The position numbers were made by a program, and so were the translations under genes. From a virus (lineage: Duplodnaviria; Heunggongvirae; Uroviricota; Caudoviricetes), in IMG/VR virus record IMGVR_UViG_2524023210_000007, positions 16,429-80,428 of that record: a DNA stretch of 64,000 bases. The stretch is one strand, 5' to 3'. Positions within the stretch are counted from its first letter, which is position 1. The number at the start of each line of letters is the position of its first letter. Under the pieces are notes generated by a model. The model was not told the DNA's origin. It ran no database searches and saw only the letters and a program-made list of their open reading frames with translations. Positions 1-48,912 of this stretch are shown here, piece after piece.

Positions 1-151
1 GCCTGGTGCCGGCGGTGAACAGGTTCACCCACTTCCGGGTCAGCATGGGCCGATAGCATTCGTTCTCGCCCCAGAACATGACGTCGCCGTGGACGCCGTC
101 CATCAGCGTGAGGCGGGCCTTGCCGCCGGGATTGTGCGCGTGCGCGTTCAT
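1..151 (-). CDS. hypothetical protein (N-terminal part; gene runs off left edge)
   Basis: ATG near 149-151 on minus strand, overlapping stop of exonuclease gene (ATGA coupling); open frame to window edge (MNAHAHNPGGKARLTLMDGVHGDV...). Confidence 0.3.
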   Translation of the reverse strand, partial: MNAHAHNPGGKARLTLMDGVHGDVMFWGENECYRPMLTRKWVNLFTAGTR

Positions 152-1098
152 GTCGCTGCCCCGGGCGGTTCGAACTGGGGCTCGCCGGTGCTGAGCAAGT
201 GTTGCTTCCGGTCGGCGCAGGCGCTGCGCAGCGTCTCGTATTCTTCGGAGCCGACGAGGATGCCGTGCGCTGCCCAATGGTCGGATTGCCCGTGCCACCA
301 GTTCTCGAGATCGCGCACCGACACAGCACCGGGGATGGCGGCGATGGATTGCTCGAGGTATTGCCGGCGGGCGCGCGCGGCTTCCTCAGCCTTGGCGTTG
401 GCGCGCCGCTCGATCTCGCGCCTGGCGTTCCAGCGCCAGTCCTCTCCCAGATTGTGGTCTTTGTTGCCGAGCCAGTCGAGATAGCCGGCGTCAGCGGCCG
501 ACAGCGGCTTGCCCTTGAACTGGCCGAAATCGAATTTGGTGAATACCGGCGGCTCGGCGCTCCACGCGATCAGCGTCTCGAGGGTCTGGTGCTTCAGGAG
601 TTCGAGGACGAGCAGGCCGCAAACATAGGCGTCCGGTTGCGCTCGATGGGGCGGCATGGCCAGCGCCGCGTCGGCCGGCGTCAGCTTCAGGGCATATCGA
701 AGCGCCTGCAGCGAGTGGCTTTCCATGTCCGGCCACTGCCGAAATGAGCATTTCCACGTGCAGATCCATCGCGCCTGGATCAATGGATCGAGGAAGGTCC
801 GCTCGAAATGAGCGGAATGGGCTGCGAAGATCAGTTCTTCGGCGTCGTCATCGCGCTCGACCAGCAGGCGCCAGACCGAATTCCAGGCGGGCGCTTCAGC
901 GACATCTTCGTCGACGATGTGGTGAATTGCCGATGAGCTCGGCGGGATCGGCGCCGCCGGCTTCACGAACGACCGGCGGCCGGTGGTGTAGAGGTGCCCG
1001 TCCCGGATGTCGTGGTAAGCGAGTTCGACCACCTCGGCGGTAGGCTCGAGGCTGGTGGTCTCGAGGTCGCAAATTCGAATGATCATGACGCGCTCCAT
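148..1098 (-). CDS. DnaQ-like DEDDh 3'-5' exonuclease with C-terminal KGKP (DUF3820-like) domain
   Basis: Exo I motif ICDLETTSL, Exo III-like HSAHFERTFL, C-terminal FGQFKGKPL motif; track ORF. Confidence 0.65.
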   Translation of the reverse strand: MERVMIIRICDLETTSLEPTAEVVELAYHDIRDGHLYTTGRRSFVKPAAPIPPSSSAIHHIVDEDVAEAPAWNSVWRLLVERDDDAEELIFAAHSAHFERTFLDPLIQARWICTWKCSFRQWPDMESHSLQALRYALKLTPADAALAMPPHRAQPDAYVCGLLVLELLKHQTLETLIAWSAEPPVFTKFDFGQFKGKPLSAADAGYLDWLGNKDHNLGEDWRWNARREIERRANAKAEEAARARRQYLEQSIAAIPGAVSVRDLENWWHGQSDHWAAHGILVGSEEYETLRSACADRKQHLLSTGEPQFEPPGAAT

Positions 1099-1835
1099 TG
1101 TCCACGTCCGACCCGCACGCCGGCGCCCATCTGGAGCACCTGTCGGATCTTTGCCTGGTAGTTCGGGTTAGCTGCGGCCTTCGGATGTGCCGCGAACGCT
1201 CGGTAGATCTCGGCGAGCGGCACAGGACCCCGCTGCGCGCGCATCCAAGCCACGATTGCCTCACGCCAGGTCGGCTCGATAGCCAGAACAACGACACTCC
1301 GCGGCAGTCGGAGAGGCACGAATGCCCCGTTCAGCCCGCAGAAGGCGAGCATCTCGGCGTCGCGCGGGCCGTAGGCGCAGAGCACCGACGGAGCGCCGGC
1401 GTTTGCGGCGCGGCCTGACTGCCGCTGCGCCGTCCCGCCGTCGACGGTGTGGAAGTCGAGCCGGCCGCGCAGGAAGAGCAGCGCGGATGCCTGTTCCCAG
1501 ACGTACCGGAAGAAGGCCTCGGTTTCGGTCCTGGCGAATATCAGCGCGATGCCACGACCGTGGCCGGACATCCGTGCCAACCACTTGCCAATGACGCTCC
1601 GATGATACGGCGGGTTGAGGAAGACTCGGCCGAACCACGGCAGAAGCAGCCCGTTGTCGCGGATGGTGTAATGGTGTGCGGCGGTCGGCCATGGCCGCAC
1701 AATCGGCGCGCACGGATCCAAATCAAACGGGCCCAGGGCTTTCAGCACCGCGGGCGGCGTCAACCACTCGTCGGTGCGAGTCCGCCGCGGCGTCTGGTGG
1801 GCGCCGATACCGGCAAAGAGCGGAGCGGTCGTCAT
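1083..1835 (-). CDS. phage DNA N6-adenine methyltransferase (Dam-like, pfam05869-type)
   Basis: LTPP...DLDPCA and FLNPPY motifs; ATGA overlap with upstream gene. Confidence 0.75.
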   Translation of the reverse strand: MTTAPLFAGIGAHQTPRRTRTDEWLTPPAVLKALGPFDLDPCAPIVRPWPTAAHHYTIRDNGLLLPWFGRVFLNPPYHRSVIGKWLARMSGHGRGIALIFARTETEAFFRYVWEQASALLFLRGRLDFHTVDGGTAQRQSGRAANAGAPSVLCAYGPRDAEMLAFCGLNGAFVPLRLPRSVVVLAIEPTWREAIVAWMRAQRGPVPLAEIYRAFAAHPKAAANPNYQAKIRQVLQMGAGVRVGRGQWSAS

Positions 1836-2023
1836 GCTGCGTTCCCAGCGTGTATTGCGCGTTGGAGAGCGCGGTTGACGATCTTGATGCGCTCAAGCTG
1901 GTACTTCGCGCTCCAACTCGCCTGAGCCTCGGCGATCTTCTTTGCTTCGGCATCACACTCCCGCATGAATGCGGCTTCGGCTGGCGTGAGGTGCTTCCGC
2001 CAATTCCACTTCTGCCTCTTCAC
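1832..2023 (-). CDS. small hypothetical protein (~63 aa)
   Basis: K/E-rich non-GC-skewed composition; GTG start overlapping kinase stop (GTGA), stop overlaps Dam start (ATGA). Confidence 0.4.
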   Translation of the reverse strand: MKRQKWNWRKHLTPAEAAFMRECDAEAKKIAEAQASWSAKYQLERIKIVNRALQRAIHAGNAA

Positions 2024-3753
2024 GGCGCCATCATCATCTGCCAAACGGCGCCGTCGATCAGGTAGACGATCCGCTCGCCCCAGGTCGCCAACTTCATCGC
2101 TGTGCTGACGCCGGTGTCGCGCACCTTGTTCACGACACCGGTGGTCGGCACAAAGATCGTGATCTCGAAATCATCGGTGATCGTGGCGACGACGCCGCGG
2201 GGCAGGATCGCCATATTGAGCTCGGGGCCGTCAGCCGGGCCGACCCATGCCTGGTAGCGGGTGAACGTCTTGTCGAAGGTGAGTTCGACCCTGCCGTAGA
2301 CACCCTGCTTATCGAGGACGGTGAAGGCCGCGAACTGGCTGCAGGCCTTGCCAGTGACAACGGTGCGGCCATCGAGTTCCGGCACCCGAATTTGTGAGAT
2401 GCCGCCGGCATGCGGCAGCACCACGAAGGCGTTGCCGAACACGTCGGTGACGGCGACGTCATCCAACCAGGTTGTGGCTCCGACCAGAATGTTCCAGCGC
2501 CGGTCCATGATCATCCGCGGTCGGCTGCCGGTATCGTTGAGCTCGAGCTCGATCAGTTCTCGGTCGGTTACTCCGAATAGGGTCTCGCCGGCCCGGAAGA
2601 CGCGCCGGAGCGGCACTGGCTGCGCGATAAACCTGCGACCGCCGGTGCCTCCAAATGGGATATGTGCGAAGTCGGTCGTGGTCGGGAGCGATATCACCCA
2701 GCCTTCCGGGACCTTGATGACCTCGGCATCGGCCGGCACCTGGTGCGCGATCGTGCCTCCGGTCGCCAGGTCGACGACTTCGCCGGACGTCAGCCGGGCG
2801 GCGCCATTCGCCCAGACTCGGGTGACGGGATCGCCGGCGCGTGCGAACAGATTCTCAAACACCAGAGCGCCGCCGGCTGCCGTCGTCACGGCGCGCATGA
2901 TCTGCGCGGCCTTCGCCGGCTTACCCATCGTGGTTGGCGCCGGCGGCGAGCCGCGCTTTCCATGTTGGAACGTCGCCTGGAACCAATCCAGCAGCGGGCC
3001 CGGAATGCAGGAGAAGCCACGGACCGACAGCGGCAGTTTCGCGCGCCGGTCGAAAACTGAGGCATTGTCCTTCATCCGCCGGACGAGATCGCCGGGTTTG
3101 TAGCCTTCAATCCTGCCCTTGTAGGGGTGGATGCCGGTGAAGACCTGGAAAGCGACGACCGCCCAGGCAAACCAATCAGTTTCGGTCGAGAAGGTTTTGG
3201 CGCTCCAGTCCCTGATGGACGGCATGATGACCGTCGCCGGCCAGCGGCCGATCGCCCAGGAGTCGACATCGATCACAGAGGCGGCCGCGGCATCCCCCTT
3301 CGTGAAGTGGACCAGCCAATTCAGTTCGTTGGCGTCGACCAGCAGGGCCTGCTTCGTGTGCGCATAGGCTACGATATCGAACATGCACTGGGTAAGCGCG
3401 ACGGCATCCCATTCACCGAACCCGGTCCGCGTCCGGTAATCCGAGACGAACACCCGCGACATCGGCTCGCCGTCGACGAACGGCATGTAGAAGCCGATCG
3501 GCTTCCCGGAGTCATCCAGCACCAGGCCGTGCGGAGCCACGATGCCGGGATGCTGCAGCCTGGCCAGCATCTTCACCTTCTCCGGCATGCCGTCGCGCGC
3601 CATCTTGTCGGCGTCGGTGTACAGTTTCACCACGGTCTGGCCGGTCCTGTAGATCGAACCTTCTCCGCCCGAGGTGACGTAGTCGCCGTCGCGTAGCGTT
3701 ACCGCACCGCGGCCCTCCAGAACGATCTTCACCGACCCTTTCCTCGAGGTCAT
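2020..3753 (-). CDS. Hanks-type Ser/Thr protein kinase with C-terminal beta-rich domain (TerY-P-type STK)
   Basis: Gly-loop GGEGSIY, VVKLY lysine, LVDANELNW catalytic-loop-like, DVDSW (DFG-like), TDWFAWAVV (APE-like); ATGA coupling upstream. Confidence 0.65.
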   Translation of the reverse strand: MTSRKGSVKIVLEGRGAVTLRDGDYVTSGGEGSIYRTGQTVVKLYTDADKMARDGMPEKVKMLARLQHPGIVAPHGLVLDDSGKPIGFYMPFVDGEPMSRVFVSDYRTRTGFGEWDAVALTQCMFDIVAYAHTKQALLVDANELNWLVHFTKGDAAAASVIDVDSWAIGRWPATVIMPSIRDWSAKTFSTETDWFAWAVVAFQVFTGIHPYKGRIEGYKPGDLVRRMKDNASVFDRRAKLPLSVRGFSCIPGPLLDWFQATFQHGKRGSPPAPTTMGKPAKAAQIMRAVTTAAGGALVFENLFARAGDPVTRVWANGAARLTSGEVVDLATGGTIAHQVPADAEVIKVPEGWVISLPTTTDFAHIPFGGTGGRRFIAQPVPLRRVFRAGETLFGVTDRELIELELNDTGSRPRMIMDRRWNILVGATTWLDDVAVTDVFGNAFVVLPHAGGISQIRVPELDGRTVVTGKACSQFAAFTVLDKQGVYGRVELTFDKTFTRYQAWVGPADGPELNMAILPRGVVATITDDFEITIFVPTTGVVNKVRDTGVSTAMKLATWGERIVYLIDGAVWQMMMAP

Positions 3754-3977
3754 GGCTCGACGACCTCGCGAAGATCCGCGGCGGGGATCGTGAAGCTTGG
3801 CCGACCACCGTTGGGATCAAGGGTGACCGAAACGTGCTCAACTCCGGTCAAACGACTGTCGTCAGAAGCCAAGTCGTAGTCATGCTGTAGGAAATCAAAG
3901 ACGATCGTACCGGCGGCGGCGAAGAGCTTGGCGCCAATAACGCGATCCTTCAGCACATGGAATCTCTTCGGTGCCAT
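3750..3977 (-). CDS. hypothetical protein (75 aa)
   Basis: internal ATG with GGAGGA RBS 9 nt upstream; TGATG overlap with upstream gene and ATGA with kinase. Confidence 0.5.
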   Translation of the reverse strand: MAPKRFHVLKDRVIGAKLFAAAGTIVFDFLQHDYDLASDDSRLTGVEHVSVTLDPNGGRPSFTIPAADLREVVEP

Positions 3978-4360
3978 CAGTAGTATTCCTCCGGCTCGTA
4001 GGGTTCGTAGACGTGGTGCTCGATGAGCCATTCCTCCATGCGCTCGCGCTCGGCTTCCGATAGGGCGGCCGGGAGTTCTCTAAGCCAGATCTCCAATCGC
4101 AGGATCTGAAGCGCCAGCCAGACAAATGGCTTCTTCCAGCCCGGGTGCCGGCTCCAGTGCAGATCGTTCCGGATCCCGCAAATGCGATCGAACTCCGACG
4201 AGTTCGGCCATGACGCTATGATGTAGACGTCGCACGGATCGCCGCCGTCGGCGCCAAACTTCGGCGAATAGGTGGTCTCACTTCCGGGCCGATAGCTGTA
4301 TTCGACCGTCACCTGGAAGCCGTTGTCCTTGCAGAAATTCTGGAAATAGGTCTGCGCCAT
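3977..4360 (-). CDS. hypothetical protein (127 aa)
   Basis: internal ATG (MAQTYFQNF...) with GAGG RBS; stop-start overlap with PP2C gene; natural amino-acid composition. Confidence 0.5.
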   Translation of the reverse strand: MAQTYFQNFCKDNGFQVTVEYSYRPGSETTYSPKFGADGGDPCDVYIIASWPNSSEFDRICGIRNDLHWSRHPGWKKPFVWLALQILRLEIWLRELPAALSEAERERMEEWLIEHHVYEPYEPEEYY

Positions 4361-5184
4361 CACACCGCCTCGTGGTCGATGTGGATGCAGGCCATCGCGA
4401 TGTCGTCGATCGGACCTCTGCCGTGCTGCTGGCAATCCTTGAGGAAGCGGAGCATCCGCCGTTTCACGAAAGTGCCCTCGGTTGACTTGAAAGACATGAG
4501 CTCGGCGACGACGTCGCGCCAGTCCATGCCGTCGACCTGGGTGACGCCGTCGGAGAACACGGCGAGGAATCTGAACATCCGCAAATCGTGGTCGATGCTG
4601 GTTCCGACGAGTCCGTCCTCGACCGTGTGGCGGGCAATAAGTTCGCGGGGATCTTCGTCAGGAGCAAAGATGTGCTGCGAGAAGGCCCTCGTCTCCATCC
4701 CGCCATGTGCCGTGACAAACCCGCGATACTCGTCGGTCCGCCAATAGGCACGGTAGACCGGCATATTGTTGGCCCACTCGATCCGGTTCATCACGAGTTG
4801 GCCATCTCGATCGATGCCGGCTGCGACGCCATCGCCTACAATCCGAGACGTCGCTCTGTTGCCCCAAATGGCAACGTAGGCGCATGTCGCCAGCAGATCA
4901 TCGGGTCGAAGACACAGTGCCGCTCGCGCGCGTTCATCGCGACGATGGCTATAATGATCGACAATGCGCTCATTCAACTCTGGCGCCTCTATCAGAGATG
5001 TCAGTGTGGAATGCGCGACGATTCTGGCTCCGACGTCAGTACGGCCGCCGCTCGAACAGCCGTCTGACACGACCGCGGCTCCGAAGATGCCGTTGGCTTG
5101 CGACAATGCGTAGTCCTGGCACGGCAGGCCGCCGCGGAGATGCTGCGATCCGATGTGAAAGGCGTGGTCGGCTGTGAAGCGCAT
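4360..5184 (-). CDS. PP2C-family Ser/Thr protein phosphatase
   Basis: PP2C motifs CQDY, VVSDGCSSGG, GDGVAAGIDRDG, FSDGVTQVDG, IDDIAM. Confidence 0.7.
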   Translation of the reverse strand: MRFTADHAFHIGSQHLRGGLPCQDYALSQANGIFGAAVVSDGCSSGGRTDVGARIVAHSTLTSLIEAPELNERIVDHYSHRRDERARAALCLRPDDLLATCAYVAIWGNRATSRIVGDGVAAGIDRDGQLVMNRIEWANNMPVYRAYWRTDEYRGFVTAHGGMETRAFSQHIFAPDEDPRELIARHTVEDGLVGTSIDHDLRMFRFLAVFSDGVTQVDGMDWRDVVAELMSFKSTEGTFVKRRMLRFLKDCQQHGRGPIDDIAMACIHIDHEAV

Positions 5185-5208
5185 GGGGTTCTCCGCGGCG
5201 GCCGCTGG

Positions 5209-5958
5209 TCAGATCGTGGCCGCGATGGCTTGGCTCGGGCCACCTGTTCCCAAAGCTTGTGACGTGCTCGAGATCGACTGCGAGACGAACTGCGCCAGCT
5301 TCGCCAGCTTGCCCTTGGTCGCGTCGCCGGCGTCGATGTATTGGGTGATGCCGGCCTCCCGCTGGAAGTCACGGAGCGCGCCGCTGCAGCTTCTGGCGTT
5401 GATCCCGATTAGGATGCTGACGTGGCTCTCCAGCAGTTCCTCACGTTGTGCCAACTCGATCTCGGCCCTGATCTGAGCCGGCCGAATTGTTGAGTCCGTG
5501 TCTTCCCCATCGGTGATGAAGAAGCTGATGGCGTTGGCATTGAACTCCTGGTCGTAGAGCATCTTGGCGTAGGCATTCGACGCGCCGACACCGCTGTAAC
5601 AGGCATCGAACAGCGGCGTGCCGCCGCCGGCACGTAGCGTGTCGTAGGCGGCAGGATCTATGCTGGAGAGCGGGATGAACCCGTGCACCTCATTGAGGCC
5701 TTTATGGTAGGCCGTGCTGAAGGCGGCGACGCGAACCAGCAGGTTCTCGGATCGCGGCGACTTCCGGCAGGCCTCAACGGCCGCCTTCACGGCCTCGATA
5801 AGGTCGGCCCGGAACGGAATGACCGATCCGCTCATGTCGACCTCGATGTCGACGAGAGTGTATTCGGTGGCGCCGAGATCCGTGATGCGTGCGCCGGTAA
5901 ACGAGAAGTTGCCGCCCAAGGTGTGGGTTTCGACATCGGTTCCATCGAGACGGGGCAT
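5209..5958 (-). CDS. von Willebrand factor A (vWA) domain protein, TerY-like
   Basis: MIDAS DxSxS (DIEVDMSGSV) and FFITDGEDTDS; AAGGAG RBS 5 nt before internal ATG; upstream SR-rich extension of the track ORF judged non-coding. Confidence 0.7.
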   Translation of the reverse strand: MPRLDGTDVETHTLGGNFSFTGARITDLGATEYTLVDIEVDMSGSVIPFRADLIEAVKAAVEACRKSPRSENLLVRVAAFSTAYHKGLNEVHGFIPLSSIDPAAYDTLRAGGGTPLFDACYSGVGASNAYAKMLYDQEFNANAISFFITDGEDTDSTIRPAQIRAEIELAQREELLESHVSILIGINARSCSGALRDFQREAGITQYIDAGDATKGKLAKLAQFVSQSISSTSQALGTGGPSQAIAATI

Positions 5959-5995
5959 GAAGTCTCCTTTATGAATTCGGGGTGAGGGGAAGCGA

Positions 5996-6874
5996 TCAGG
6001 ACAGGAAGGCGTCAGAGGTGGTGAGCACCAGGCCGCGGGCTTCCATGTCCTTGAGGAACTGCTGCGCGATCGCCGGGAAGTCGGGGCCGCCGGGCGCCTG
6101 CGGGACCGGTGACATGCAGTCTGCCAGGATGTGGATCTTCCGGAGATGCTCATCGCCGATGTTGTCGACGATCTGCCGGATGGTGGTCGCGACGCAGTGG
6201 GACGAGGCCTCGCCGGCGATGCCGATGACATCGGCCTCCTGGAGCACGCTGAGGAAACTGCCGTTCAATTGCGTGGACGGGTCGGCCGGATCCGGCACCT
6301 CCGCCATCAAGGCCCCGTAGTGCTCCGTGAAGGTGTTGGTCCCCTTGGTGACGAAATCGACGGTTGCGAAGTTCTCGCGCTCCCAGTCGGCGAGGGTGGT
6401 CCGGAGCTCATCGACAACGTTGTGTCCCCAGCTTCCGATCAGGCAGTGCTCCGGCCAGATCATCAGCATGAACTTGCCGGCGGCCTCGAGCGAGGCGGTG
6501 TAGTCGAGCATCCGCTGGCGGTATGCCTGGTTTCTCGGAGACCACATGCCCGACTTGATGTCGGCATTGCTGATAATGGTGAAGGGCGTCGGATGCTTCC
6601 CGTTCTCGCCGCGCCAGAAGCCTGGATGAGCGACGTCGACGACGCGATGCGAATCCAGGGTAACGTGGATATCGTTGAGGCGCCTGCCGACCCGTTTGAT
6701 CAGGGCTGCGACGCGCGCCATGTCGCCGAGCGCGCCCGGGACGGGGAGCGTCGAGCGAAACTTGGCGCCGCCAGGCAGCGCGAAGCCGACGGGATCGCCG
6801 GGGTTGGCGAGGATATCCATGAAATCATTCTGTGGATCGATGATGACGAGATCGGCTTTGATGGTCTTGCGCAT
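5996..6874 (-). CDS. isochorismatase-family cysteine hydrolase (nicotinamidase-like)
   Basis: ADLVIIDPQNDF motif and catalytic-Cys region GEASSHCVATT. Confidence 0.7.
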   Translation of the reverse strand: MRKTIKADLVIIDPQNDFMDILANPGDPVGFALPGGAKFRSTLPVPGALGDMARVAALIKRVGRRLNDIHVTLDSHRVVDVAHPGFWRGENGKHPTPFTIISNADIKSGMWSPRNQAYRQRMLDYTASLEAAGKFMLMIWPEHCLIGSWGHNVVDELRTTLADWERENFATVDFVTKGTNTFTEHYGALMAEVPDPADPSTQLNGSFLSVLQEADVIGIAGEASSHCVATTIRQIVDNIGDEHLRKIHILADCMSPVPQAPGGPDFPAIAQQFLKDMEARGLVLTTSDAFLS

Positions 6875-6898
6875 GCGGTGAACCTCCTTTGATGTTGA

Positions 6899-7459
6899 CT
6901 AGCCGTAGAAAAACCGGACTCGCTTGCCGCAATGGCACGTCGCTCTGATGCCGCGGATCAGCGGCCCAAACGAGTCCTGTTCGATCATGTAGAATGAGAT
7001 GCGGGTGTAGCCGCGCTTTTCCAGCGCTGGCCCGAGAATGTCGCGCTCGCCCTCGTAGTATTCGTCGAAGCTGAACTTGTCGGCGTCTGCGCCGAGGAAC
7101 GACATCAACTCGAGCGCTTCCGCTTCTTCCTGATCTCGCTCGGCCAGACGTTTCTTCCGTTCGGCATGCCTCTCCGCTTCGCCAGGCGGGACCTTGACCG
7201 CGGACTTGCTGAGTTCAATTTCGGCGCTGATGTCATGGCCGTGGCTTGCAAGATATTCGGAGTCGGGCTTGGCGCCGTACGCCGGGTTCGTGTTTGCCGG
7301 ATCGGCGCCGTCGTATTGGAGCACGACCTTGCCGGTGAGGCGATCGGTCCAGACGATGTCGTATGTCCGTTCGTCGGGCTCGAAAGTCGACCGGACATAG
7401 CGCGGGATCATCTGCGAAGGTGCGGCTTCAGACATGAATGCCATCCCGCTGCAATGCAT
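6899..7459 (-). CDS. hypothetical protein
   Basis: track ORF; ATG (M3) with GGAG 7 nt upstream; C-terminal CHCGKRVRFFYG. Confidence 0.45.
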   Translation of the reverse strand: MHCSGMAFMSEAAPSQMIPRYVRSTFEPDERTYDIVWTDRLTGKVVLQYDGADPANTNPAYGAKPDSEYLASHGHDISAEIELSKSAVKVPPGEAERHAERKKRLAERDQEEAEALELMSFLGADADKFSFDEYYEGERDILGPALEKRGYTRISFYMIEQDSFGPLIRGIRATCHCGKRVRFFYG

Positions 7460-7853
7460 CTGCAATCTCCGGTGCGATCGCCCCGCCGGTCATGACGAGG
7501 TAGGCCGACAGAAGAGCTGCGGCCAGTGTCTCGCCCTCGAACCTGCGGTCGACCCAACCGGTGTAGTCACCGCAGGCCTCGATCGCGTTGTTGGGGCCGA
7601 GATTGAAATCTGGGTTATCGCAAACGAGGGTAACGCTGTGACCTTCCTCGGCGCGCAGGGCCTCGATCAGGATCCATGCCGCCGGCGCCGGCTGCAACCG
7701 CGGAACGGACCATGCCTGAATGCTTGCCTCGCAGTGGCAATCCCTGCACTGGACCTTCTTGATCTCCTTCAGTCCGTCGTCGAGCGAAACCCAGTGGCTG
7801 AACCTATTCAGGTTGGTCGAGCGGCAGAGCGGGCAAGGCAACAGATCAGCCAT
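7428..7853 (-). CDS. zinc-ribbon protein (Lar/restriction-alleviation-like N-terminus)
   Basis: N-terminal CPLC...C..C zinc ribbon; track ORF. Confidence 0.4.
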   Translation of the reverse strand: MADLLPCPLCRSTNLNRFSHWVSLDDGLKEIKKVQCRDCHCEASIQAWSVPRLQPAPAAWILIEALRAEEGHSVTLVCDNPDFNLGPNNAIEACGDYTGWVDRRFEGETLAAALLSAYLVMTGGAIAPEIADALQRDGIHV

Positions 7854-8457
7854 TGGCCGGCCTCTTGATGTCGGCGATCACCTGGGCCGCGGCCTTCTCA
7901 ACGGCGAAAGCAAGCCGGTCCGCGTCGCTACCGTTCATGAAGGCACGGAGCTTGCGCTCCGCAGCACGAGCGCGCTCCTCCAGCTTGTTGTTGAATTGGA
8001 GGAGTTCGGTGACACGCGCTTCATGCACCACCTTCGGCACGGTCTCAGGATTGTACTTTCGGGCCCGTTCGGCGGTTTCTTCAGTCGTCATGACGAGTGC
8101 GTCGATCAAGTGTCGCTTCGGCTTCAGCCGCCCGCCGAGCGCTCGTATCCACGAATTTTGAATGGATGCGATCTCGATCAAAAGCTGGTCAGGCGCCTCC
8201 GGCTTTGGCTCAGCCGGCTTCGGACACATGCCGAGTTCAGCAAGCCGGCAATCAATCTCGTAGATCGTCAGACCGACCGCATGTCTCACCGCGGAACGGA
8301 TGAACTCGGTATTGATCGTGCCCAGAACATGGGTCTGGTGGCCTTCGTCCCAGACGGTGAAGTCGATCGTCCCAGTCGTGATGACGTCGGCCAGGCGCTG
8401 CGCGGCTTGGCGCCTATTGCGCAGATGGAGAGCTTCGTCGAGGAAATCGAGTTTCAT
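7846..8457 (-). CDS. hypothetical phage protein
   Basis: internal ATG (MKLDFLDEALHL) with GGAGG RBS; competing plus-strand ORF 7720..8637 is R-rich. Confidence 0.5.
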   Translation of the reverse strand: MKLDFLDEALHLRNRRQAAQRLADVITTGTIDFTVWDEGHQTHVLGTINTEFIRSAVRHAVGLTIYEIDCRLAELGMCPKPAEPKPEAPDQLLIEIASIQNSWIRALGGRLKPKRHLIDALVMTTEETAERARKYNPETVPKVVHEARVTELLQFNNKLEERARAAERKLRAFMNGSDADRLAFAVEKAAAQVIADIKRPANG

Positions 8458-9161
8458 GCCGCGCGCGCCTCCAGTGCGTCGATGTTCGCCTTGATGACTC
8501 GGAAGCTGATCGCGACGACGTCTGGATTGTCGTCCCAGGACTGCTTGCCGTGCAGGGTGCACCAAAGATTGGCGAACGCTGCTCTGGCGCTTGGAAAGCA
8601 GAAGTTGGATCCGAGTGCCGCCTGGTCTGGATTGTGATGCCAACCCTCGGCAAGTTGACCGTCAGCGCGGAAGCCGTGATCGACGTAGACCATACCCTCT
8701 GCGATCGCGTCCGTTTCGCTGATCTCTTGGACTGGTTCGATCTTTGTCGATGTCACAAGCAGCGTGATGCGCGACGCCCAGCGCGGCAGATGCATGCTAG
8801 CGCGTCGTCGGCCTAGCCATGAAGGACGTTCGCCCGCCGGTGGATAAGATCGATCTGGCGCCCAGGTGCCGGTTTTCTGATTTGCGATCGATCCGCCGGC
8901 ATCGAAAACCACCGACATCTTGCGAGGCACGAGTTTGGAAGGCGGCACCGCATCCCATCTATTACTGACGCGCCAGTCCTCACGGACCCAGAGCCGATCG
9001 CCAGGCTTCACCTTGGTCCAGAAGGACGGCCGGTCGACGACGAAACCACCTTCGACAGCCCGCGCGCCGGCAGGAATCTTGGCATCCGGCCGGTAGAACC
9101 GTTCGGTCACGGCCGAGCGCCTCGTCATGGTCTTAAGATCGTCCAGCTCCGCATTGACCAT
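8454..9161 (-). CDS. conserved phage protein (PGDRLWVREDW / MHLPRWASR motifs; ASCH/PUA-like?)
   Basis: track ORF; start set at internal ATG (MVNAELDD). Confidence 0.4.
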   Translation of the reverse strand: MVNAELDDLKTMTRRSAVTERFYRPDAKIPAGARAVEGGFVVDRPSFWTKVKPGDRLWVREDWRVSNRWDAVPPSKLVPRKMSVVFDAGGSIANQKTGTWAPDRSYPPAGERPSWLGRRRASMHLPRWASRITLLVTSTKIEPVQEISETDAIAEGMVYVDHGFRADGQLAEGWHHNPDQAALGSNFCFPSARAAFANLWCTLHGKQSWDDNPDVVAISFRVIKANIDALEARAA

Positions 9162-9190
9162 TGGCGCTGAGAATAGAGCAGGAATGTCGG

Positions 9191-9838
9191 TCACCGCGCG
9201 GCTCCATAAATCGCCTCGCGGACAGCGCGGCATTTCTCGATGTCGAACCGGTCGTCGGTCCGTACGCCGCTCTCCATGTCGATCCAGTACCGGCCGGGCA
9301 TCTGCTCGAGCACGGACATGACGCCACGAATATTCTCAGGGGATATGCCGCCGGCGTATCCGACTAGGCGGTTGCCGCCGGGATGCATGGGCCAGGCGGT
9401 CGGGGTCTCGCCGGTCCCACCAGAGCGGTCAAACAGCCAGTCGACTGAGGTGTCGCTCGGGAATTCGTCACCACGGCATTGCGCGATACCGCGCTTGATG
9501 CCCCAGCCGCTCCGGAAATAATTGATCCGTGCCGGAACCGGAGCGGCATGGTTGATTTGGCAGCGCTTGAAGTACCAGAAGTCGACGGGCGGCCGCTCGA
9601 TGTCGCGCCCTTCCATGATCGCGTCGCTGTAATCGCCGCAGATGTGCGCGGACAGGCGAAGATTGCTCCACATGATGCGGGACAAACCATCGCCACCCGG
9701 ATACCGCGGATCGACACCTTGACGCTTTGGGCTGAAGAGAACGCCCCACTCAATCGGATATAGCGAGGACAGATGTGCCATCGCTCGGACGCAGGTCCAG
9801 TTGTCGACACCGGCGAACGTGATGAATTCTGGCGTCAT
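9191..9838 (-). CDS. phosphoribosylanthranilate isomerase (TrpF)-like TIM-barrel protein
   Basis: TrpF-like motifs DRSGGTGETPTAW, GYAGGISPENI, WIDMESGVRT; ATGA overlap with radical SAM gene. Confidence 0.6.
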   Translation of the reverse strand: MTPEFITFAGVDNWTCVRAMAHLSSLYPIEWGVLFSPKRQGVDPRYPGGDGLSRIMWSNLRLSAHICGDYSDAIMEGRDIERPPVDFWYFKRCQINHAAPVPARINYFRSGWGIKRGIAQCRGDEFPSDTSVDWLFDRSGGTGETPTAWPMHPGGNRLVGYAGGISPENIRGVMSVLEQMPGRYWIDMESGVRTDDRFDIEKCRAVREAIYGAAR

Positions 9839-10674
9839 GCTGGCGCTCCATGATGCTGCTGGACGCGCAACGGGTTGTGGTAGCCCGTTGGCAAGTGTTC
9901 CTGCAGGTCCCGCTTGACGTAGTGCTTCACGCCGAGCGCCTGGCAGACCTCGATGATGCGGAGGGTGTAGTCATGCCAATCAATCGACCTCGCGACCTTC
10001 GGCACGTAATTCACCTTTCCAATTTTGTAGAGGTCGACGAATTCATGGGTCTCCTTGATGATCGCGATCGACGACTCCGCGGACAGCGTCGGCTCGAGCG
10101 ACACCCAGGTGAAGATGCCGGCTTCGTAGAACCGGCGCAGCGTCTCGATACGGTCCCATGGCAGCGCCGCTTTGCGCTCCCATTCCTTCGAGATCGCGCC
10201 GTCCAGAGTCGTCAGCGTGCAAGCGTAGGCGTCGCGGTCGCGGCGGTAGAGGTCGATGAAGGGGAGGGCGCGGCCACCACCTTTCGACAACGTGCAGAAC
10301 GCCATCCCGCCATCAATCAGAGCCCTGATAGTCAGTTCGGTATGCGCCAGGTCCCCGAGATGAAAGGGATCGCTGGAGAAGGTGATGAAGATCTGCTCAT
10401 TCGGTCCGCCAGCAACGCCGGCGGTTCGGTAGCGGACAATGTCGCGGCGAAGACGTTCAAGATAGCCTGGCCGCGGCTCTGCCTTTTCATTGAACGTGTC
10501 ACGAGGGATGTGCGTTGCGAGCGGGACATAGCAGTAGAGACACTCATGACCGCAACCGCGATAAGGATTAGTGGCCAGCGGCGCATATTCGCCGGCGTTA
10601 CCCTTCGGTCGATAGATCACGTCCGCGCCGGGCACGACGGGCTGATCAGCAAAGTATCCATCCGCCGTGATCAT
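9835..10674 (-). CDS. radical SAM protein, SplB/spore-photoproduct-lyase-like (COG1533-type)
   Basis: NPYRGCGHECLYCY (CX3CX2C) near N-terminus; start at internal ATG (MITADGYF) overlapping upstream stop (ATGA). Confidence 0.7.
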   Translation of the reverse strand: MITADGYFADQPVVPGADVIYRPKGNAGEYAPLATNPYRGCGHECLYCYVPLATHIPRDTFNEKAEPRPGYLERLRRDIVRYRTAGVAGGPNEQIFITFSSDPFHLGDLAHTELTIRALIDGGMAFCTLSKGGGRALPFIDLYRRDRDAYACTLTTLDGAISKEWERKAALPWDRIETLRRFYEAGIFTWVSLEPTLSAESSIAIIKETHEFVDLYKIGKVNYVPKVARSIDWHDYTLRIIEVCQALGVKHYVKRDLQEHLPTGYHNPLRVQQHHGAPA

Positions 10675-10676
10675 CA

Positions 10677-10883
10677 GACGTCGTGCCTCGGGCAGCCATG
10701 GACCCAGTCGGCGCCAACCTGCGTCGCCTTCCAGCCTTCGCGTTTCGCCCGCGACCAAAAGACGTTCCAGTCCTCGCCGTGCTCCGCCTGGACGATCTCG
10801 TCGCAGGAGTCGCACTCGACGACATGATGGCCGTGCTGGAAGTCCTTCACTTCGTGGCTCCTTCTGGCGCCGCGTCGGTCCAT
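10677..10883 (-). CDS. small Cys/His-rich (zinc-binding?) protein, 69 aa
   Basis: track ORF; HGHHVVECDSCDE...HGCPRH; stop coupled to radical SAM start. Confidence 0.35.
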
Positions 10884-11146
10884 TCCTTGTCGCGGCGGGT
10901 TTGCTCGAGCTTGGCGAGATAGGCCTCACGGAACTGCGCGAATGTCTCGAATTCACGGGGATCGTCGCGAAGCTTGAAGACGTCCCGCGATTGTCCGGCG
11001 TTTCGTCCGGTGCCGAGCCACGACGACAGCGAACCGATTACCTCGCCGCCTTCGTCGAGAAGGTCGTGACCGTAAGTGGAGCCACCGGTGGCGCGGATAT
11101 GAAGCACCAAGCGCCGTTGGATGATGGGTTTGGCAGAATCCGTCAT
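10847..11146 (-). CDS. hypothetical protein
   Basis: internal ATG (MTDSAKPII); ATGA overlap with upstream gene. Confidence 0.4.
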   Translation of the reverse strand: MTDSAKPIIQRRLVLHIRATGGSTYGHDLLDEGGEVIGSLSSWLGTGRNAGQSRDVFKLRDDPREFETFAQFREAYLAKLEQTRRDKEWTDAAPEGATK

Positions 11147-11727
11147 TCTCGCCCTCCCAGAGAGCAGGACGCGCCGTCGTACATCTCGACCAGGATGTCC
11201 TCGATCAGGGCGCCGACCCGCCGGCGCGCATTCCAGACGCAACTGTGATCGACGCCGAACGCGAGGCCGACAGCGTTTGGGCTATCGGACACGAGGCGGT
11301 GGGCGAGGCAGATCGAGATCAGGCGAATCCGGCAAGACCCGCTCCAGCGGGACTTCTCAAGAACGATGTGTCGGCCAACCTTGAATGCGCTGGCGATCGC
11401 GACCTGCAGCAGCTTCAGCCGAACCTTCATGCCGTAACCAGGCGGCGTATCGGCGGCAATCTCGAAATAGGCAGTGATGGCGCGGCGGATCGCCGTCTGC
11501 TCGGCATCCGCGCTCAGCCGAACAACACGCTCGCGTGGCTCACGCCGCTGATCTGGAACGATGTCGGCCGGCGGCGGCAGCATAATGACGACCGGCTTCG
11601 GCAGGAACGGATTCGGTCGCGGCGCCGGCGGGATGACGCGTGGCAATCGGGACCGGACCGCCGCATAGTGGCGGGCCAGTGCCGAGGCGCTCGAGAACTC
11701 GGGTGCCGTAGCCAGCAATATGCTCAT
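11143..11727 (-). CDS. DnaA C-terminal-domain-like HTH protein
   Basis: RIRLISICLAHRL...VGLAFGVDHSCVWNARRRV resembles DnaA domain IV; ATGA overlap with HNH gene. Confidence 0.45.
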   Translation of the reverse strand: MSILLATAPEFSSASALARHYAAVRSRLPRVIPPAPRPNPFLPKPVVIMLPPPADIVPDQRREPRERVVRLSADAEQTAIRRAITAYFEIAADTPPGYGMKVRLKLLQVAIASAFKVGRHIVLEKSRWSGSCRIRLISICLAHRLVSDSPNAVGLAFGVDHSCVWNARRRVGALIEDILVEMYDGASCSLGGRE

Positions 11728-12140
11728 GCCATTTTCCTGGACTGGAAGCCGCGACCTTTTGGAAATGACGACCGACCCTTGAGCTTGCGCTTTGGCTTGT
11801 CGGGCTTCGGGCTGGTCATGCGCTTGACCTTGGCGCGCCGATGGGAATCGGATCCCGCCGTCGTAGCCCCGTTGCCGTGCGTCCGGACATCGTGGCCCGC
11901 AACGGTGCACGCATCGATGTATCCAGGATCGTTCGCCGCTGGGATCGTGTCCTGCGCAACCGTGTCGAACTTCCGCTCCCAGAGCGCCGGGCGATGGTCA
12001 AACCGGGTATTGGCGAGTGTGCCAAGCTTCTCGCCGGTCTGCTTGCATCTACCCTCCTGGCGAATGACGACGTCGAGTTTCACTCGCGTCGGCATCGCTG
12101 GACGCTTCCATTCCGGTGGCGGACGATCGAGGATCGTCAT
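11724..12140 (-). CDS. HNH endonuclease
   Basis: EGRCKQTGEKLG...RFDHRPALWER HNH-like core; ATGA overlaps on both sides. Confidence 0.55.
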   Translation of the reverse strand: MTILDRPPPEWKRPAMPTRVKLDVVIRQEGRCKQTGEKLGTLANTRFDHRPALWERKFDTVAQDTIPAANDPGYIDACTVAGHDVRTHGNGATTAGSDSHRRAKVKRMTSPKPDKPKRKLKGRSSFPKGRGFQSRKMA

Positions 12141-17039: not shown

Positions 17040-17287
17040 GCCGCCGTTCCCGCATTCAGATCGATGGGACCGAGCACGCGCGCGCGATCAATCGCGGCCA
17101 AAAGGCGCGGCTTGATCTGGGCATAGGTGTAGCCCCCAGTCGCCGGCCCCCACAGGATGGTGAAGGCGCGGTTTACGATGCGCTCGACCGGCCCGTCGAA
17201 CGACAGGTTGTTCACGCGCAGCACCGTCGCCATCGCTTCGGTGAGGTCGAGATCCTGTGTCGGCGGCACGAAGCGGGGATCGCTCAT
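17036..17287 (-). CDS. hypothetical protein (83 aa)
   Basis: track ORF; ATGA overlap with upstream gene. Confidence 0.45.
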   Translation of the reverse strand: MSDPRFVPPTQDLDLTEAMATVLRVNNLSFDGPVERIVNRAFTILWGPATGGYTYAQIKPRLLAAIDRARVLGPIDLNAGTAA

Positions 17288-17514
17288 GGCGCACCCCAGT
17301 CATCATTGAGGCCGGCGAGGGCGCGGTCCACCGCATAGTCTTCGGCCAGATCGGCCCCACTCTCGCGGCGAAAGCCGTATTCCTCGGGATGAGCGAGCAG
17401 GTCGCTGACGATGCGGTAATAGGCTTCGCGCTCATCGGATGGCGCCGCCTCGATCTCGGCACGAGACGCAAAGAGAAGGCTGATGCCTGGCGGCGGCTGA
17501 TAGCCGTCGCTCAC
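17284..17514 (-). CDS. hypothetical protein (76 aa, GTG start)
   Basis: GTG overlaps stop of 17511..17747 (GTGA); remainder of track ORF 17284..18186 overlaps the tRNA and is not coding. Confidence 0.4.
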   Translation of the reverse strand: MSDGYQPPPGISLLFASRAEIEAAPSDEREAYYRIVSDLLAHPEEYGFRRESGADLAEDYAVDRALAGLNDDWGAP

Positions 17515-17747
17515 CGAATAGGGGCCGGCTTGTCGAAGCCAGGCGTCCACCCGTTGTCCAACGTAATGACCTCGTTCCCAACCCGCTCGAGGCGCTGCAC
17601 GTCGAACCAGTGCGATTCCTTGTATGCGCCGTTCTCGCCGACCTTCGGCACCAGCAGGGCCTGGTTGCAACCGCTGATGTATTGGCAGTGACCGACGACC
17701 ACTCCCTGGAAGCCGGTGATCTTGTCCCTCTGTGTCGTACCGAGCAT
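17511..17747 (-). CDS. hypothetical protein (78 aa)
   Basis: track ORF; AAGGGA RBS 8 nt upstream; non-skewed composition. Confidence 0.5.
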   Translation of the reverse strand: MLGTTQRDKITGFQGVVVGHCQYISGCNQALLVPKVGENGAYKESHWFDVQRLERVGNEVITLDNGWTPGFDKPAPIR

Positions 17748-17947
17748 GTATCGAATCCCTTATGACTGTGATGGAAACTGCTTCTCGCGGGCCGAGCGCT
17801 ACTTCGGCGACCACGCCGCCGCGAGAATGGTCTCGGGTGACGGCGGGGCACTTAGCGGTTTCAACCGCCCTTCCCGATGGAGCCGTCATCGCTTCGCGAC
17901 CGCCCCATGTCATTGACCCGGGCTCATGGATGCCAAGGCCGTCACCC

Positions 17948-18024
17948 GAACTGAAATTGGTTGCGGAGACAGGATTCGAACCTGTGACCTTCTGGTTATG
18001 AGCCAGACGAGCTACCGTGCTGCT
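17948..18024 (-). tRNA. tRNA-Met (anticodon CAT; could instead be the lysidine-type Ile2)
   Basis: Cloverleaf read directly from sequence: acceptor TGCGGGG/CTCCGCA, D-stem GAGC/GCTC, anticodon stem TCTGG/CCAGA with loop CTCATAA, T-stem ACAGG/CCTGT, T-loop TTCGAAT. Discriminator A followed by an encoded CCA. Confidence 0.75.
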
Positions 18025-18056
18025 CCACCCCGCAAAACTGGTTGCCGCTGCCGACA

Positions 18057-48877: not shown

Positions 48878-48896
48878 AGTGGTTGCTCCTTTCATC

Positions 48897-48912
48897 TTGC
48901 GCACAATCGCGC
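48897..48912 (-). repeat. palindromic repeat family 2 (TTGCGCACAATCGCGC) upstream of RBS
   Basis: 12-28 nt upstream of the 46577..48877 start, directly 5' of its SD. Confidence 0.55.

What the first reader, a model, noticed from the sequence alone, without database searches (positions are those of the whole stretch)
2020..6874. Phage-borne TerY-P-like phospho-signalling operon (vWA, PP2C, two orphan ORFs, Hanks kinase) plus a nicotinamidase-like hydrolase
Five translationally coupled genes sit in the early-left operon. They encode a vWA/TerY-like protein, a PP2C phosphatase, two unknown proteins of 127 and 75 aa, and a eukaryotic-like Ser/Thr kinase with a ~300-aa beta-rich C-terminal domain. 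Stop-start overlaps are visible at 4360, 3977 and 3752. The vWA-PP2C-STK triad is the TerY-P module described by Anantharaman, Iyer and Aravind, but here it is carried by a temperate phage and has two inserted small ORFs. An isochorismatase-family cysteine hydrolase (motifs ADLVIIDPQNDF and SSHCVATT) lies directly upstream at 5996..6874. This could be a phage-encoded sensing or anti-defence module (for example a response to host abortive-infection or NAD-depleting systems), or a lysogen-protective module.
Basis: partly seen in the sequence, partly recalled or inferred. Interest (0 to 1): 0.7.

Follow-up and report, generated by a model that had tools for sequence, protein, structure and literature searches.

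The report
Nicotinamidase-plus-kinase-switch cassette on a prophage
A Bradyrhizobium prophage carries a widespread but apparently undescribed four-gene cassette, in which a nicotinamidase-like enzyme is always joined to a vWA protein, a PP2C phosphatase and a Ser/Thr kinase; elsewhere this cassette sits inside NAD-salvage gene clusters, which gives a poorly understood bacterial signalling triad a testable link to NAD metabolism.

Summary
Six co-directional minus-strand genes lie at 2020-6874, and the stated stop/start overlaps and motifs are present. The domain calls hold up:
- The kinase has a Hanks-type fold with a C-terminal 7-bladed beta-propeller.
- The PP2C has all its metal-binding motifs.
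- The vWA is of the TerY/YegL type with an intact MIDAS site.
- The hydrolase is PncA-like, with its catalytic triad and metal ligands invariant.

The two small ORFs are inserts specific to this phage lineage. The 'extra' nicotinamidase-like gene is a core part of the unit. In 63 of 64 evaluable related loci the order iso-vWA-PP2C-kinase is colinear, and in the 64th the iso gene lies 2.5 kb further upstream. These loci include Bradyrhizobium prophages, three huge phages, other viral contigs and many Patescibacteria-like contigs. In the cellular contigs the cassette sits among NAD-salvage genes (nrtR, pncB, nadD, nadE, pncA).

The triad is homologous to E. coli YegL-PphC-YegI. It matches no PADLOC defence model for its vWA or PP2C proteins.

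My best reading is a phospho-regulated nicotinamide-salvage module that phages have captured, plausibly to sustain NAD+ during infection. That function is inferred, not shown. I rate it a new variant of a known kind, of moderate to high interest.

The parts
5996..6874 (-). PncA-like nicotinamidase-family cysteine hydrolase (292 aa), core gene 1 of the cassette. It carries about 90 aa of insertions relative to canonical PncA.
   Evidence: Pfam Isochorismatase scores only 17.2 bits, below the cut-off of 27. A family profile hits only nicotinamidases at the top of the PDB list (Pnc1 2h0r, E 6.5e-10). hhalign against a co-located canonical PncA gives 96.8% probability, E 2.7e-10. D13, K177 and C227 (catalytic triad) and D74, H76 and H143 (metal ligands, WPxHC motif) are invariant in 14 diverse members.
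5209..5958 (-). TerY/YegL-type vWA protein (249 aa) with an intact MIDAS site and a conserved Ser-rich C-terminal tail, core gene 2.
   Evidence: The MIDAS residues D41-x-S-x-S45, T114 and D150 are invariant. hhalign against E. coli YegL gives 93.8% probability, E 1.8e-7. Pfam VWA is hit by 3 of 13 members (best E 7.7e-4). The profile aligns to the ITIH4 vWA domain with the MIDAS residues in register. JGI names homologues 'YegL' and NCBI names them 'VWA domain-containing'. The window protein itself has no Pfam hit.
4360..5184 (-). PP2C-family Ser/Thr phosphatase (274 aa), core gene 3.
   Evidence: Pfam PP2C_2 scores 59.3 bits against a cut-off of 24. The motifs QD(23-24), DG(41-42), GDG(117-119), DG(212-213) and DD(260-261) are invariant. 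hhalign against E. coli PphC gives 95.3% probability, E 2.3e-8.
3977..4360 (-). 127-aa ORF of unknown function, an accessory insert between the PP2C and kinase genes.
   Evidence: No hit in Pfam, PHROGs, PADLOC or NCBIfam. It is present only in the close Bradyrhizobium relatives L001, L002, L006 and L008. It is absent from L007 and from all distant loci. Its start overlaps the PP2C stop as TGATG.
3750..3977 (-). 75-aa ORF (phrog_7900, function unknown), an accessory insert seen only in this window.
   Evidence: phrog_7900, E 1.2e-19. No full homologue in any of the other loci; the only hit is a 20-residue match in L006. Junctions are TGATG at 3977 and ATGA at 3753-3750.
2020..3753 (-). Hanks-type Ser/Thr kinase (residues 1-270) joined by a disordered linker to a C-terminal 7-bladed beta-propeller (about 295-577), core gene 4.

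Best explanation
The feature is a copy of a conserved four-gene cassette: a PncA-like nicotinamidase, a TerY/YegL-type vWA protein, a PP2C phosphatase and a Hanks-type kinase with a C-terminal beta-propeller. It has been captured by a large temperate Bradyrhizobium phage, and in this lineage two unrelated small ORFs have been inserted before the kinase.

Shown here:
- the homology assignments;
- intact catalytic and metal sites in all four proteins;
- near-invariant colinearity of the four genes across very distant genomes;
- in cellular (Patescibacteria-like) contigs, a position inside NAD-salvage clusters, typically nrtR, then the cassette, then pncB/nadD/pncA on the same strand, with nadE nearby.

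Inferred:
- The hydrolase deamidates nicotinamide, or a close pyridine carboxamide, to feed the Preiss-Handler route (PncB, then NadD, then NadE).
- The kinase, using its propeller as sensor or docking surface, and the PP2C form a reversible phospho-switch.
- The vWA protein is the adaptor or substrate of that switch. Its conserved Ser-rich C-terminal tail is the likeliest phospho-acceptor. The switch tunes the hydrolase or the flux through the pathway.
- In the phage, which brings no other NAD gene, the cassette would use the host's PncB/NadD/NadE to recycle nicotinamide into NAD+ during infection or induction. That would include recycling after NAD+ cleavage by host abortive-infection NADases.
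For: Cassette conservation:
- 63 of 64 loci with enough upstream sequence have all four genes colinear. The one exception, LR756511, has the hydrolase 2.5 kb further upstream.
- The loci span Bradyrhizobium prophages, three huge phages of 462-595 kb, a 411-kb viral contig, and Patescibacteria/Parcubacteria MAGs.
- The hydrolase is the most conserved member, at 55-68% identity across phyla.

NAD context:
- Recurrent neighbour families are NAPRTase (33 loci), NAD synthase (30), NrtR (25), NadD/NMNAT-like (21), canonical PncA (10) and Prs (7), confirmed by Pfam.
- 37 of 56 loci with at least 8 kb of flank hold at least one of these.
- The immediate same-strand neighbours are most often nrtR upstream and pncB or nadD downstream.
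- Independent gene calls agree.

Enzymology by homology: for the nicotinamidase; 43, 88 and 59 for the vWA; 3, 86 and 89 for the PP2C; 24, 48, 69 and 90 for the kinase.

E. coli YegI is an active, autophosphorylating Ser/Thr kinase (bioRxiv 10.1101/819920).

Phages are known to rebuild NAD+ against NAD-depleting defences through NARP1-3 (abstracts).

In the window the cassette lies in a long co-directional block. That block also holds a weak Lar-like restriction-alleviation match (E 0.0018, below the Pfam cut-off) and an orphan Dam methylase. There is no terminator-like site on that strand.
Against: - No biochemical or genetic data exist for any member of this cassette.
- Ten loci also carry a canonical PncA, so the PncA-like enzyme may act on a different substrate.
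- The Bradyrhizobium prophages and the huge phages L011, L013 and L014 carry the cassette without any neighbouring NAD gene, and none is found anywhere in the window. The NAD link for the phage copies is therefore by extension from cellular loci.
- Rhodopseudomonas palustris has a 70%-identical hydrolase with no triad, so the enzyme does not need the triad.
- The window's hydrolase and kinase both score below the Pfam gathering thresholds.
- Nothing shows which protein the kinase phosphorylates or what the propeller binds.
- Removing nicotinamide could equally well hinder NAD+ rebuilding by pathways that use nicotinamide directly.
Confidence: 0.5

Rival explanations
1. The enzyme chemistry differs: the PncA-like protein does not act on free nicotinamide. 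It would deamidate another pyridine carboxamide (NMN, nicotinamide riboside, or NAD itself) or a nucleotide-derived signal. The triad would control that step. The cassette stays NAD-related but is not a simple PncA.
For: A canonical PncA co-occurs in 10 loci. The protein carries about 90 extra residues relative to PncA structures. It falls below the Pfam Isochorismatase threshold. In six loci it is fused to an unknown domain of about 230 aa.
Against: All the nicotinamidase-specific ligands are invariant, namely DxH and WPxHC as well as the D-K-C triad. Every top PDB match is a nicotinamidase. In most loci it is the only PncA-like gene in a pncB-nadD-nadE cluster.
Confidence: 0.2
2. The cassette is a defence or superinfection-exclusion module, like the TerY-P systems reported to protect against phage. 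The kinase/PP2C/vWA switch would sense an incoming phage. The nicotinamidase would be the effector, for example destroying nicotinamide so that an invader cannot rebuild NAD+ through nicotinamide-dependent pathways.
For: TerY-P-like modules are reported as stand-alone anti-phage systems (Gao et al. 2020, as cited in PMC11090510). The carrier here is a temperate phage, and prophages often protect their lysogens. NARP2 converts nicotinamide into NAD+ (abstract), and NARP1 uses ADPR and nicotinamide (abstract). One locus has AbiV/Panacea/Fic genes next to the cassette.
Against: Most copies lie in operon-like NAD biosynthetic clusters with pncB, nadD and nadE under NrtR, which fits salvage rather than depletion. 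Huge lytic-type phages carry the cassette. No PADLOC model matched the vWA or PP2C, even at E<=1. The kinase lacks the zinc-ribbon or OB module of described TerY-P kinases.
Confidence: 0.15
3. There is no functional coupling. The kinase is a general host-takeover kinase, as in T7, and the hydrolase is an unrelated auxiliary metabolic gene that merely sits nearby.
For: Phage kinases with broad targets are known (PMC13645617, abstract). The substrates of the homologous E. coli YegI are unknown.
Against: All four genes are present in all 64 evaluable loci, across phyla and viruses, with short gaps or overlaps. They stay in order even where homing-endonuclease-like and other genes have been inserted between them. 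The propeller-kinase architecture occurs essentially only in this context.
Confidence: 0.03

Closest known systems
E. coli YegL-PphC-YegI (a TerY-P-type triad: vWA, PP2C phosphatase, eukaryotic-like Ser/Thr kinase)
   Same: The gene order is the same: vWA, then PP2C, then kinase. All three proteins are homologous by profile comparison, at 93.8%, 95.3% and 97.0% probability. Shared motifs include GGEG, VxKxY, D-x-N, IDxDS and HPY-G in the kinase, MIDAS and a Ser-rich C-terminal helix in the vWA, and QD/DGC in the PP2C.
   Different: YegI is a 648-aa membrane protein with no beta-propeller. The E. coli locus has no nicotinamidase gene and no NAD genes. Identity is low, about 23-25% over the aligned parts.
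TerY-P triad of Ter clusters, CoCoNuT systems and the TerY-P-like anti-phage system (Anantharaman et al. 2012; Gao et al. 2020; described in PMC11090510)
   Same: The architecture is a TerY-like vWA, a PP2C and an STK. These are proposed to act as a metal-dependent phospho-switch and are mobile between genomic contexts.
   Different: The described kinases end in a zinc ribbon, or in an OB fold in the defence version. This one ends in a 7-bladed propeller. No PADLOC model matched the vWA or PP2C. The partners here are NAD-salvage enzymes, not Ter proteins, McrBC-type nucleases or restriction systems.
PncA/Pnc1 nicotinamidases of the Preiss-Handler NAD salvage pathway
   Same: The fold family, the D-K-C catalytic triad and the Asp/His/His metal site are shared. 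So is the genomic company of pncB, nadD, nadE and NrtR.
   Different: The protein is about 270-290 aa, against about 180-216 aa for most solved PncA/Pnc1 proteins, because of insertions. It is below the Pfam threshold. It is always followed by the triad in the cassette, and it sometimes co-occurs with a canonical PncA.
Phage NAD+ reconstitution pathways NARP1, NARP2 and NARP3
   Same: These are phage-borne genes that act on NAD+ breakdown products, and they offer the most plausible selective rationale for phage carriage.
   Different: The enzymes differ. NARP1 is Adps plus Namat. NARP2 converts nicotinamide into NAD+ via NMN (abstract). NARP3 is PnuC plus NadR. None contains a nicotinamidase or a kinase/phosphatase/vWA switch. 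The window has no homologue of Prs-, NAPRTase- or NadD-type genes.

Membership tests
TerY-P / YegL-PphC-YegI triad | TerY/YegL-type vWA protein with a MIDAS site | tested here: met
   hhalign against YegL gives 93.8% probability, E 1.8e-7. D41, S45, T114 and D150 are invariant. JGI names homologues YegL.
TerY-P / YegL-PphC-YegI triad | Adjacent PP2C-family phosphatase | tested here: met
   Pfam PP2C_2 at 59.3 bits, above the cut-off of 24. hhalign against PphC gives 95.3% probability. The metal-binding Asp motifs are invariant.
TerY-P / YegL-PphC-YegI triad | Adjacent Hanks-type Ser/Thr kinase, in the gene order vWA-PP2C-kinase | tested here: met
TerY-P / YegL-PphC-YegI triad | Kinase fused at its C-terminus to a zinc ribbon (classical) or an OB fold (defence version) | tested here: not met
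   The C-terminal 295 residues model as a 7-bladed beta-propeller. No Cys-rich motif appears in the alignment.
TerY-P anti-phage defence system | Match to models of known defence systems | tested here: not met
   PADLOC-DB gave no hit for the vWA or PP2C of four diverse members, even at E<=1. The kinase gave only weak PD-T4-6/mad6 hits. That this library contains TerY-P models is my own recollection and was not verified here.
TerY-P anti-phage defence system | Protection of cells against phage | not testable with these tools
   This needs plaque assays.
Nicotinamidase (PncA/Pnc1) | Asp-Lys-Cys catalytic triad of the isochorismatase-like fold | tested here: met
   D13, K177 and C227 are invariant in 14 members. 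They align to the triad regions of Pnc1 and of a co-located PncA.
Nicotinamidase (PncA/Pnc1) | Metal site: DxH plus the His of WPxHC | tested here: met
   D74, H76, W140, H143 and C144 are invariant. WPEHC aligns with WPVHC of Pnc1.
Nicotinamidase (PncA/Pnc1) | Score above the curated Pfam Isochorismatase threshold | tested here: not met
   17.2 bits against a cut-off of 27. The family profile still retrieves nicotinamidases from the PDB at E 6.5e-10.
Nicotinamidase (PncA/Pnc1) | Hydrolysis of nicotinamide to nicotinate | not testable with these tools
   This needs an enzyme assay.
Phage NAD+ reconstitution pathways (NARP1/2/3) | Presence of the defining enzyme pairs (NARP1 Adps plus Namat; NARP2 nicotinamide-to-NMN-to-NAD+ enzymes; NARP3 PnuC plus NadR) | tested here: not met
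   tblastn with Prs, NAPRTase-family and NadD-like proteins from related loci found nothing in the 64-kb window. PnuC was not searched for.
Hanks-type (eukaryotic-like) protein kinase | Gly-rich loop, catalytic Lys, catalytic-loop Asp and Asn, DFG-equivalent Asp | tested here: met
   G29-G30-E31, K43, D140, N142 and D162/D164 are invariant and N145 is conserved in at least 90% of members. They align with the corresponding motifs of MAP3K9. The alpha-C Glu position is not conserved.

The most novel reading that the evidence does not exclude
The cassette is a previously unrecognised NAD-homeostasis sensor-effector system. The propeller-kinase and PP2C would read an NAD-related cue and, through the vWA adaptor, gate a dedicated nicotinamidase. 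Phages, including huge phages and this Bradyrhizobium prophage, would have taken it over as a fourth, regulated, Preiss-Handler-based way of rebuilding NAD+ against NAD-depleting immunity. This would also give the first physiological role to a TerY-P/YegI-type triad.
Probability: 0.3. Interest if true: 0.8.

Novelty: new variant of a known kind. Interest (0 to 1): 0.62.

Why it matters
TerY-P/YegL-PphC-YegI triads are widespread. They are enzymatically active in E. coli, and some versions are reported to defend against phage, yet their substrates and signals are unknown. In this cassette one branch of the family is locked to a single metabolic enzyme. In cellular genomes it is also locked to a defined pathway, NrtR-controlled Preiss-Handler NAD salvage. 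That turns a vague 'signalling triad' into a concrete hypothesis testable with four soluble proteins.

For phage biology, the cassette is a candidate for a regulated nicotinamide-recycling module. This comes at a time when NAD+ depletion and reconstitution is an active front of the phage-host arms race.

For Patescibacteria, which depend on salvage, it points to post-translational control of NAD supply.

Tried and rejected
- A megablast search of window 1-12000 against 50,697 phage records found nothing.
- Single-sequence searches were weak. Pfam gave no vWA hit, and the kinase and hydrolase were below threshold. NCBIfam gave nothing meaningful. phmmer of the vWA against the PDB found nothing. 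The calls therefore needed family profiles and structure models.
- Fold searches with the full-length kinase model returned only kinases. The C-terminal domain had to be modelled separately.
- PADLOC was searched twice for a defence-system assignment and gave none for the vWA or PP2C.
- Literature searches combining nicotinamidase or isochorismatase with vWA, PP2C, kinase and phage found no description of this cassette. The NAD+-ADPr survey of viruses (PMC9503650) does not mention PncA, PP2C or TerY. The library lacks many subscription journals, including Anantharaman et al. 2012, so absence from it is not proof.
- I considered whether the upstream radical-SAM gene, the PRAI-like gene and the 259-aa gene belong to the unit. 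Apart from one PRAI-like gene in L011, they recur only in the related prophages, so I excluded them.
- I considered NARP1 in L003, which has NAPRTase-like and Prs-like genes, but did not pursue it.

Full report
**Observation**

The minus strand of window 2020-6874 holds six tightly packed ORFs:
- a 292-aa hydrolase (5996-6874);
- a 249-aa protein (5209-5958);
- a 274-aa PP2C (4360-5184);
- a 127-aa ORF (3977-4360);
- a 75-aa ORF (3750-3977; a 93-aa reading from 4031 is possible but less likely);
- a 577-aa kinase (2020-3753).

The other two gaps are 24 and 37 nt, and good ribosome-binding sites precede the first two genes. No terminator-like site lies on this strand between 1313 and 12000.

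The window is a temperate phage. It holds a large terminase, a portal, DnaB and an exonuclease, a CI-like HTH+S24 repressor, and a DNA polymerase III beta clamp. The kinase is identical to a protein of Bradyrhizobium sp. Ai1a-2. IMG/VR holds 110-121 kb relatives with the same gene block near one contig end.

**What each protein is**

*PP2C.* Only this protein passes a curated threshold on its own (Pfam PP2C_2, 59 bits). Its metal-binding motifs (QD, DG, GDG, DG, DD) are invariant in 12 diverse homologues.

*The 249-aa protein.* It has no Pfam hit itself. The family has an invariant MIDAS signature (D41-x-S-x-S45, T114, D150). Three of 13 members touch Pfam VWA. The profile aligns to the ITIH4 vWA domain with the MIDAS residues in register. 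JGI and NCBI name homologues 'YegL' or 'VWA domain-containing'.

*The 292-aa protein.* It is a divergent PncA. D13, K177 and C227 (triad) and D74, H76 and H143 (metal site, WPxHC) are invariant. Its profile retrieves only nicotinamidases at the top of the PDB list (E 6.5e-10). It matches a canonical PncA from a related locus at 96.8% probability.

**The triad is of the YegL-PphC-YegI / TerY-P type**

I fetched the E. coli K-12 yegL-pphC-(yegJ)-yegI locus, which has the same order of vWA, PP2C and kinase. I compared its proteins with the three family profiles. The results were 93.8% (E 1.8e-7), 95.3% (E 2.3e-8) and 97.0% (E 9e-11 over 318 columns). YegI is an experimentally active, autophosphorylating Ser/Thr kinase whose substrates are unknown (bioRxiv 10.1101/819920).

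TerY-P is described as a TerY-like vWA, a PP2C and an STK fused to a C-terminal zinc ribbon. An OB-fold version acts as an anti-phage system (PMC11090510, citing Anantharaman 2012 and Gao 2020). The present kinase has a propeller instead. No PADLOC model matched the vWA or PP2C, even at E<=1. It is therefore a relative of the triad, not a member of the described defence system.

**The real unit is four genes, and it is widespread**

Related loci came from several sources:
- a genome scan (L001-2);
- viral contigs (L006-12);
- three huge phages from GenBank (L013-14 and LR756500);
- exact-protein look-ups (L003-5, L017, L099-100);
- a metagenome scan (L018-97).

Of 64 loci with at least 2.9 kb upstream of the kinase, 63 have hydrolase, vWA, PP2C and kinase colinear on one strand, with a median span of 4.3 kb. 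The exception, LR756511, has the hydrolase 2.5 kb further upstream, just outside the fetched stretch. The hydrolase is the most conserved of the four, at 55-68% identity between the Bradyrhizobium prophage and Patescibacteria-like contigs.

The two small ORFs are not part of the unit. The 75-aa ORF (phrog_7900) has no full homologue in any other locus. The 127-aa ORF is found only in four close Bradyrhizobium relatives and is absent from a fifth. Other phages carry different inserts between cassette genes, including a LAGLIDADG-type gene and several unrelated ORFs. The four core genes nevertheless stay in order.

The hydrolase can also stand alone. Rhodopseudomonas palustris HaA2 has a 70%-identical copy with no triad. 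I found no case of the triad without the hydrolase.

**Context**

I clustered the 931 flanking ORFs and scanned representatives against Pfam. The recurrent neighbours are:
- NAPRTase/PncB (33 loci);
- glutamine-dependent NAD synthase NadE (30);
- the Nudix-type NAD regulator NrtR (25);
- NadD/NMNAT-like adenylyltransferases (21);
- canonical PncA (10);
- ribose-phosphate pyrophosphokinase (7).

Of 56 loci with at least 8 kb of flank, 37 carry at least one of these. The commonest immediate neighbours on the same strand are nrtR upstream and pncB or nadD downstream. Precomputed gene calls for long contigs agree. Several of these contigs are clearly cellular. They carry topoisomerase I, ParAB, SHMT and tRNA synthetases, and one contig is 1.78 Mb. 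The named sources are Parcubacteria/Patescibacteria MAGs.

Some phage copies lack NAD neighbours: the Bradyrhizobium prophages and the huge phages L011, L013 and L014. The window has no NAD-salvage gene anywhere. Other virus-associated loci do have them. The 411-kb viral contig L010 has an nrtR-like gene 1 kb upstream, L012 has a NadE-like fragment, and L004, which lies next to prophage capsid genes, has NadE, two NadD-like genes and an ADP-ribosylglycohydrolase.

**Mechanism**

What is shown is homology, intact active sites, obligate linkage and NAD-salvage context.

What I infer is as follows. The hydrolase converts nicotinamide to nicotinate for the Preiss-Handler route. The kinase and PP2C form a reversible switch. 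The vWA protein is its adaptor or substrate. The vWA family ends in a strikingly conserved Ser-rich tail (FVSQSVSSQSQALGTGGPSQxIAATI, with S226, S228, S233 and S242 invariant). The start of that tail aligns with a similar Ser-rich segment of YegL, which makes it the best candidate phospho-acceptor. The propeller is the obvious sensor or docking surface.

In a phage that brings only the cassette, the host's PncB, NadD and NadE would complete NAD+ synthesis. That would be useful during replication, and especially after NAD+ cleavage by abortive-infection NADases, the pressure that NARP1-3 answer by other enzymes. The cassette's neighbours in the prophage fit an early, counter-defence-rich block: a weak Lar-like match (E 0.0018, below the Pfam cut-off), an orphan Dam methylase and other methyltransferases.

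**Rivals**

- The enzyme may act on NMN, NR or another amide. This would explain its co-occurrence with canonical PncA and its insertions.
- The cassette may be a defence or exclusion module that removes nicotinamide. This fits the TerY-P precedent but sits badly with biosynthetic operon contexts and carriage by huge phages.
- The linkage may be fortuitous. The 64-of-64 presence of all four genes effectively excludes this.

**Comparison and novelty**

The parts are known kinds: PncA, the TerY-P/YegILK triad, and beta-propeller-tailed bacterial kinases. The following were not found in the literature I could search:
- the obligate four-gene coupling;
- the propeller-kinase architecture;
- the embedding in NrtR-type NAD-salvage clusters;
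- the presence in prophages and huge phages.

That library is incomplete, and the original TerY-P paper could not be read. I therefore rate the finding a new variant of a known kind, with moderate to high interest. The organisation is solid, at about 0.9 confidence. The proposed function stands at about 0.45-0.5.

Noticed in passing
window 17958-18034 (-): A tRNA-Met (CAT) gene lies inside the prophage, between the long minus-strand early block and the repressor region. A 300-aa ORF (17284-18186) overlaps it and is probably spurious.
   Followed up: no
window 8454-10956 (-): Just upstream of the cassette lie a radical-SAM protein (373 aa, CxxxCxxC), a PRAI-like TIM-barrel protein (215 aa; Pfam PRAI at 21.5 bits, just under the cut-off) and a 259-aa unknown. 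A 29%-identical PRAI-like gene also sits just downstream of the cassette in the unrelated viral contig L011 (11683-12387).
   Followed up: partly
window 7428-7853 (-), 1083-1835 (-), 28958-31327 (+), 36254-37837 (+), 46577-48904 (-): The phage is rich in likely anti-restriction functions. These are a weak Lar-like restriction-alleviation match, a Dam-type orphan methylase, two large DNA methyltransferases, and a DUF3560 plus methyltransferase protein.
   Followed up: no
window 27512-28726 (+) and 31563-32468 (+): The phage encodes its own DNA polymerase III beta sliding clamp (all three Pfam domains) and an SPFH/Band-7 protein.
   Followed up: no
L003 4707-5426; also L021, L043, L046, L089, L093: In six Patescibacteria-like loci an unknown domain of about 230 aa is fused to the N-terminus of the PncA-like protein. 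L043 and L046 also carry a 34%-identical free paralogue downstream of the kinase. No family matched it.
   Followed up: partly
L009 7510-7995; L005 9812-10489: Homing-endonuclease-type genes sit within or next to the cassette: a LAGLIDADG motif protein between vWA and PP2C in L009, and a LAGLIDADG_3 protein after the kinase in L005. The cassette junctions appear to be insertion hot spots, like the two small ORFs in the window.
   Followed up: partly
L099 10884-17447: In a 652-kb contig, an island separates the cassette from its NAPRTase gene. The island holds a nucleoside 2-deoxyribosyltransferase-like gene, an AbiV-type HEPN, a SocA/Panacea domain, KilA-N and two Fic proteins. This is a defence/toxin-antitoxin island inserted into the NAD cluster.
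   Followed up: no
L015 10001-10873 (Rhodopseudomonas palustris HaA2, CP000250 2713504-2714376): A 70%-identical copy of the PncA-like gene stands alone between a chemoreceptor gene and a GGDEF gene, with no vWA, PP2C or kinase. It is either a cellular ancestor or a remnant of the cassette.
   Followed up: partly
window 5209-5300 (C-terminus of the vWA protein): The last 30 or so residues of the vWA family (FVSQSVSSQSQALGTGGPSQxIAATI) are more conserved than most of the domain and are rich in Ser/Thr-Gln. The beginning of this segment aligns with a Ser-rich segment of E. coli YegL.
   Followed up: partly
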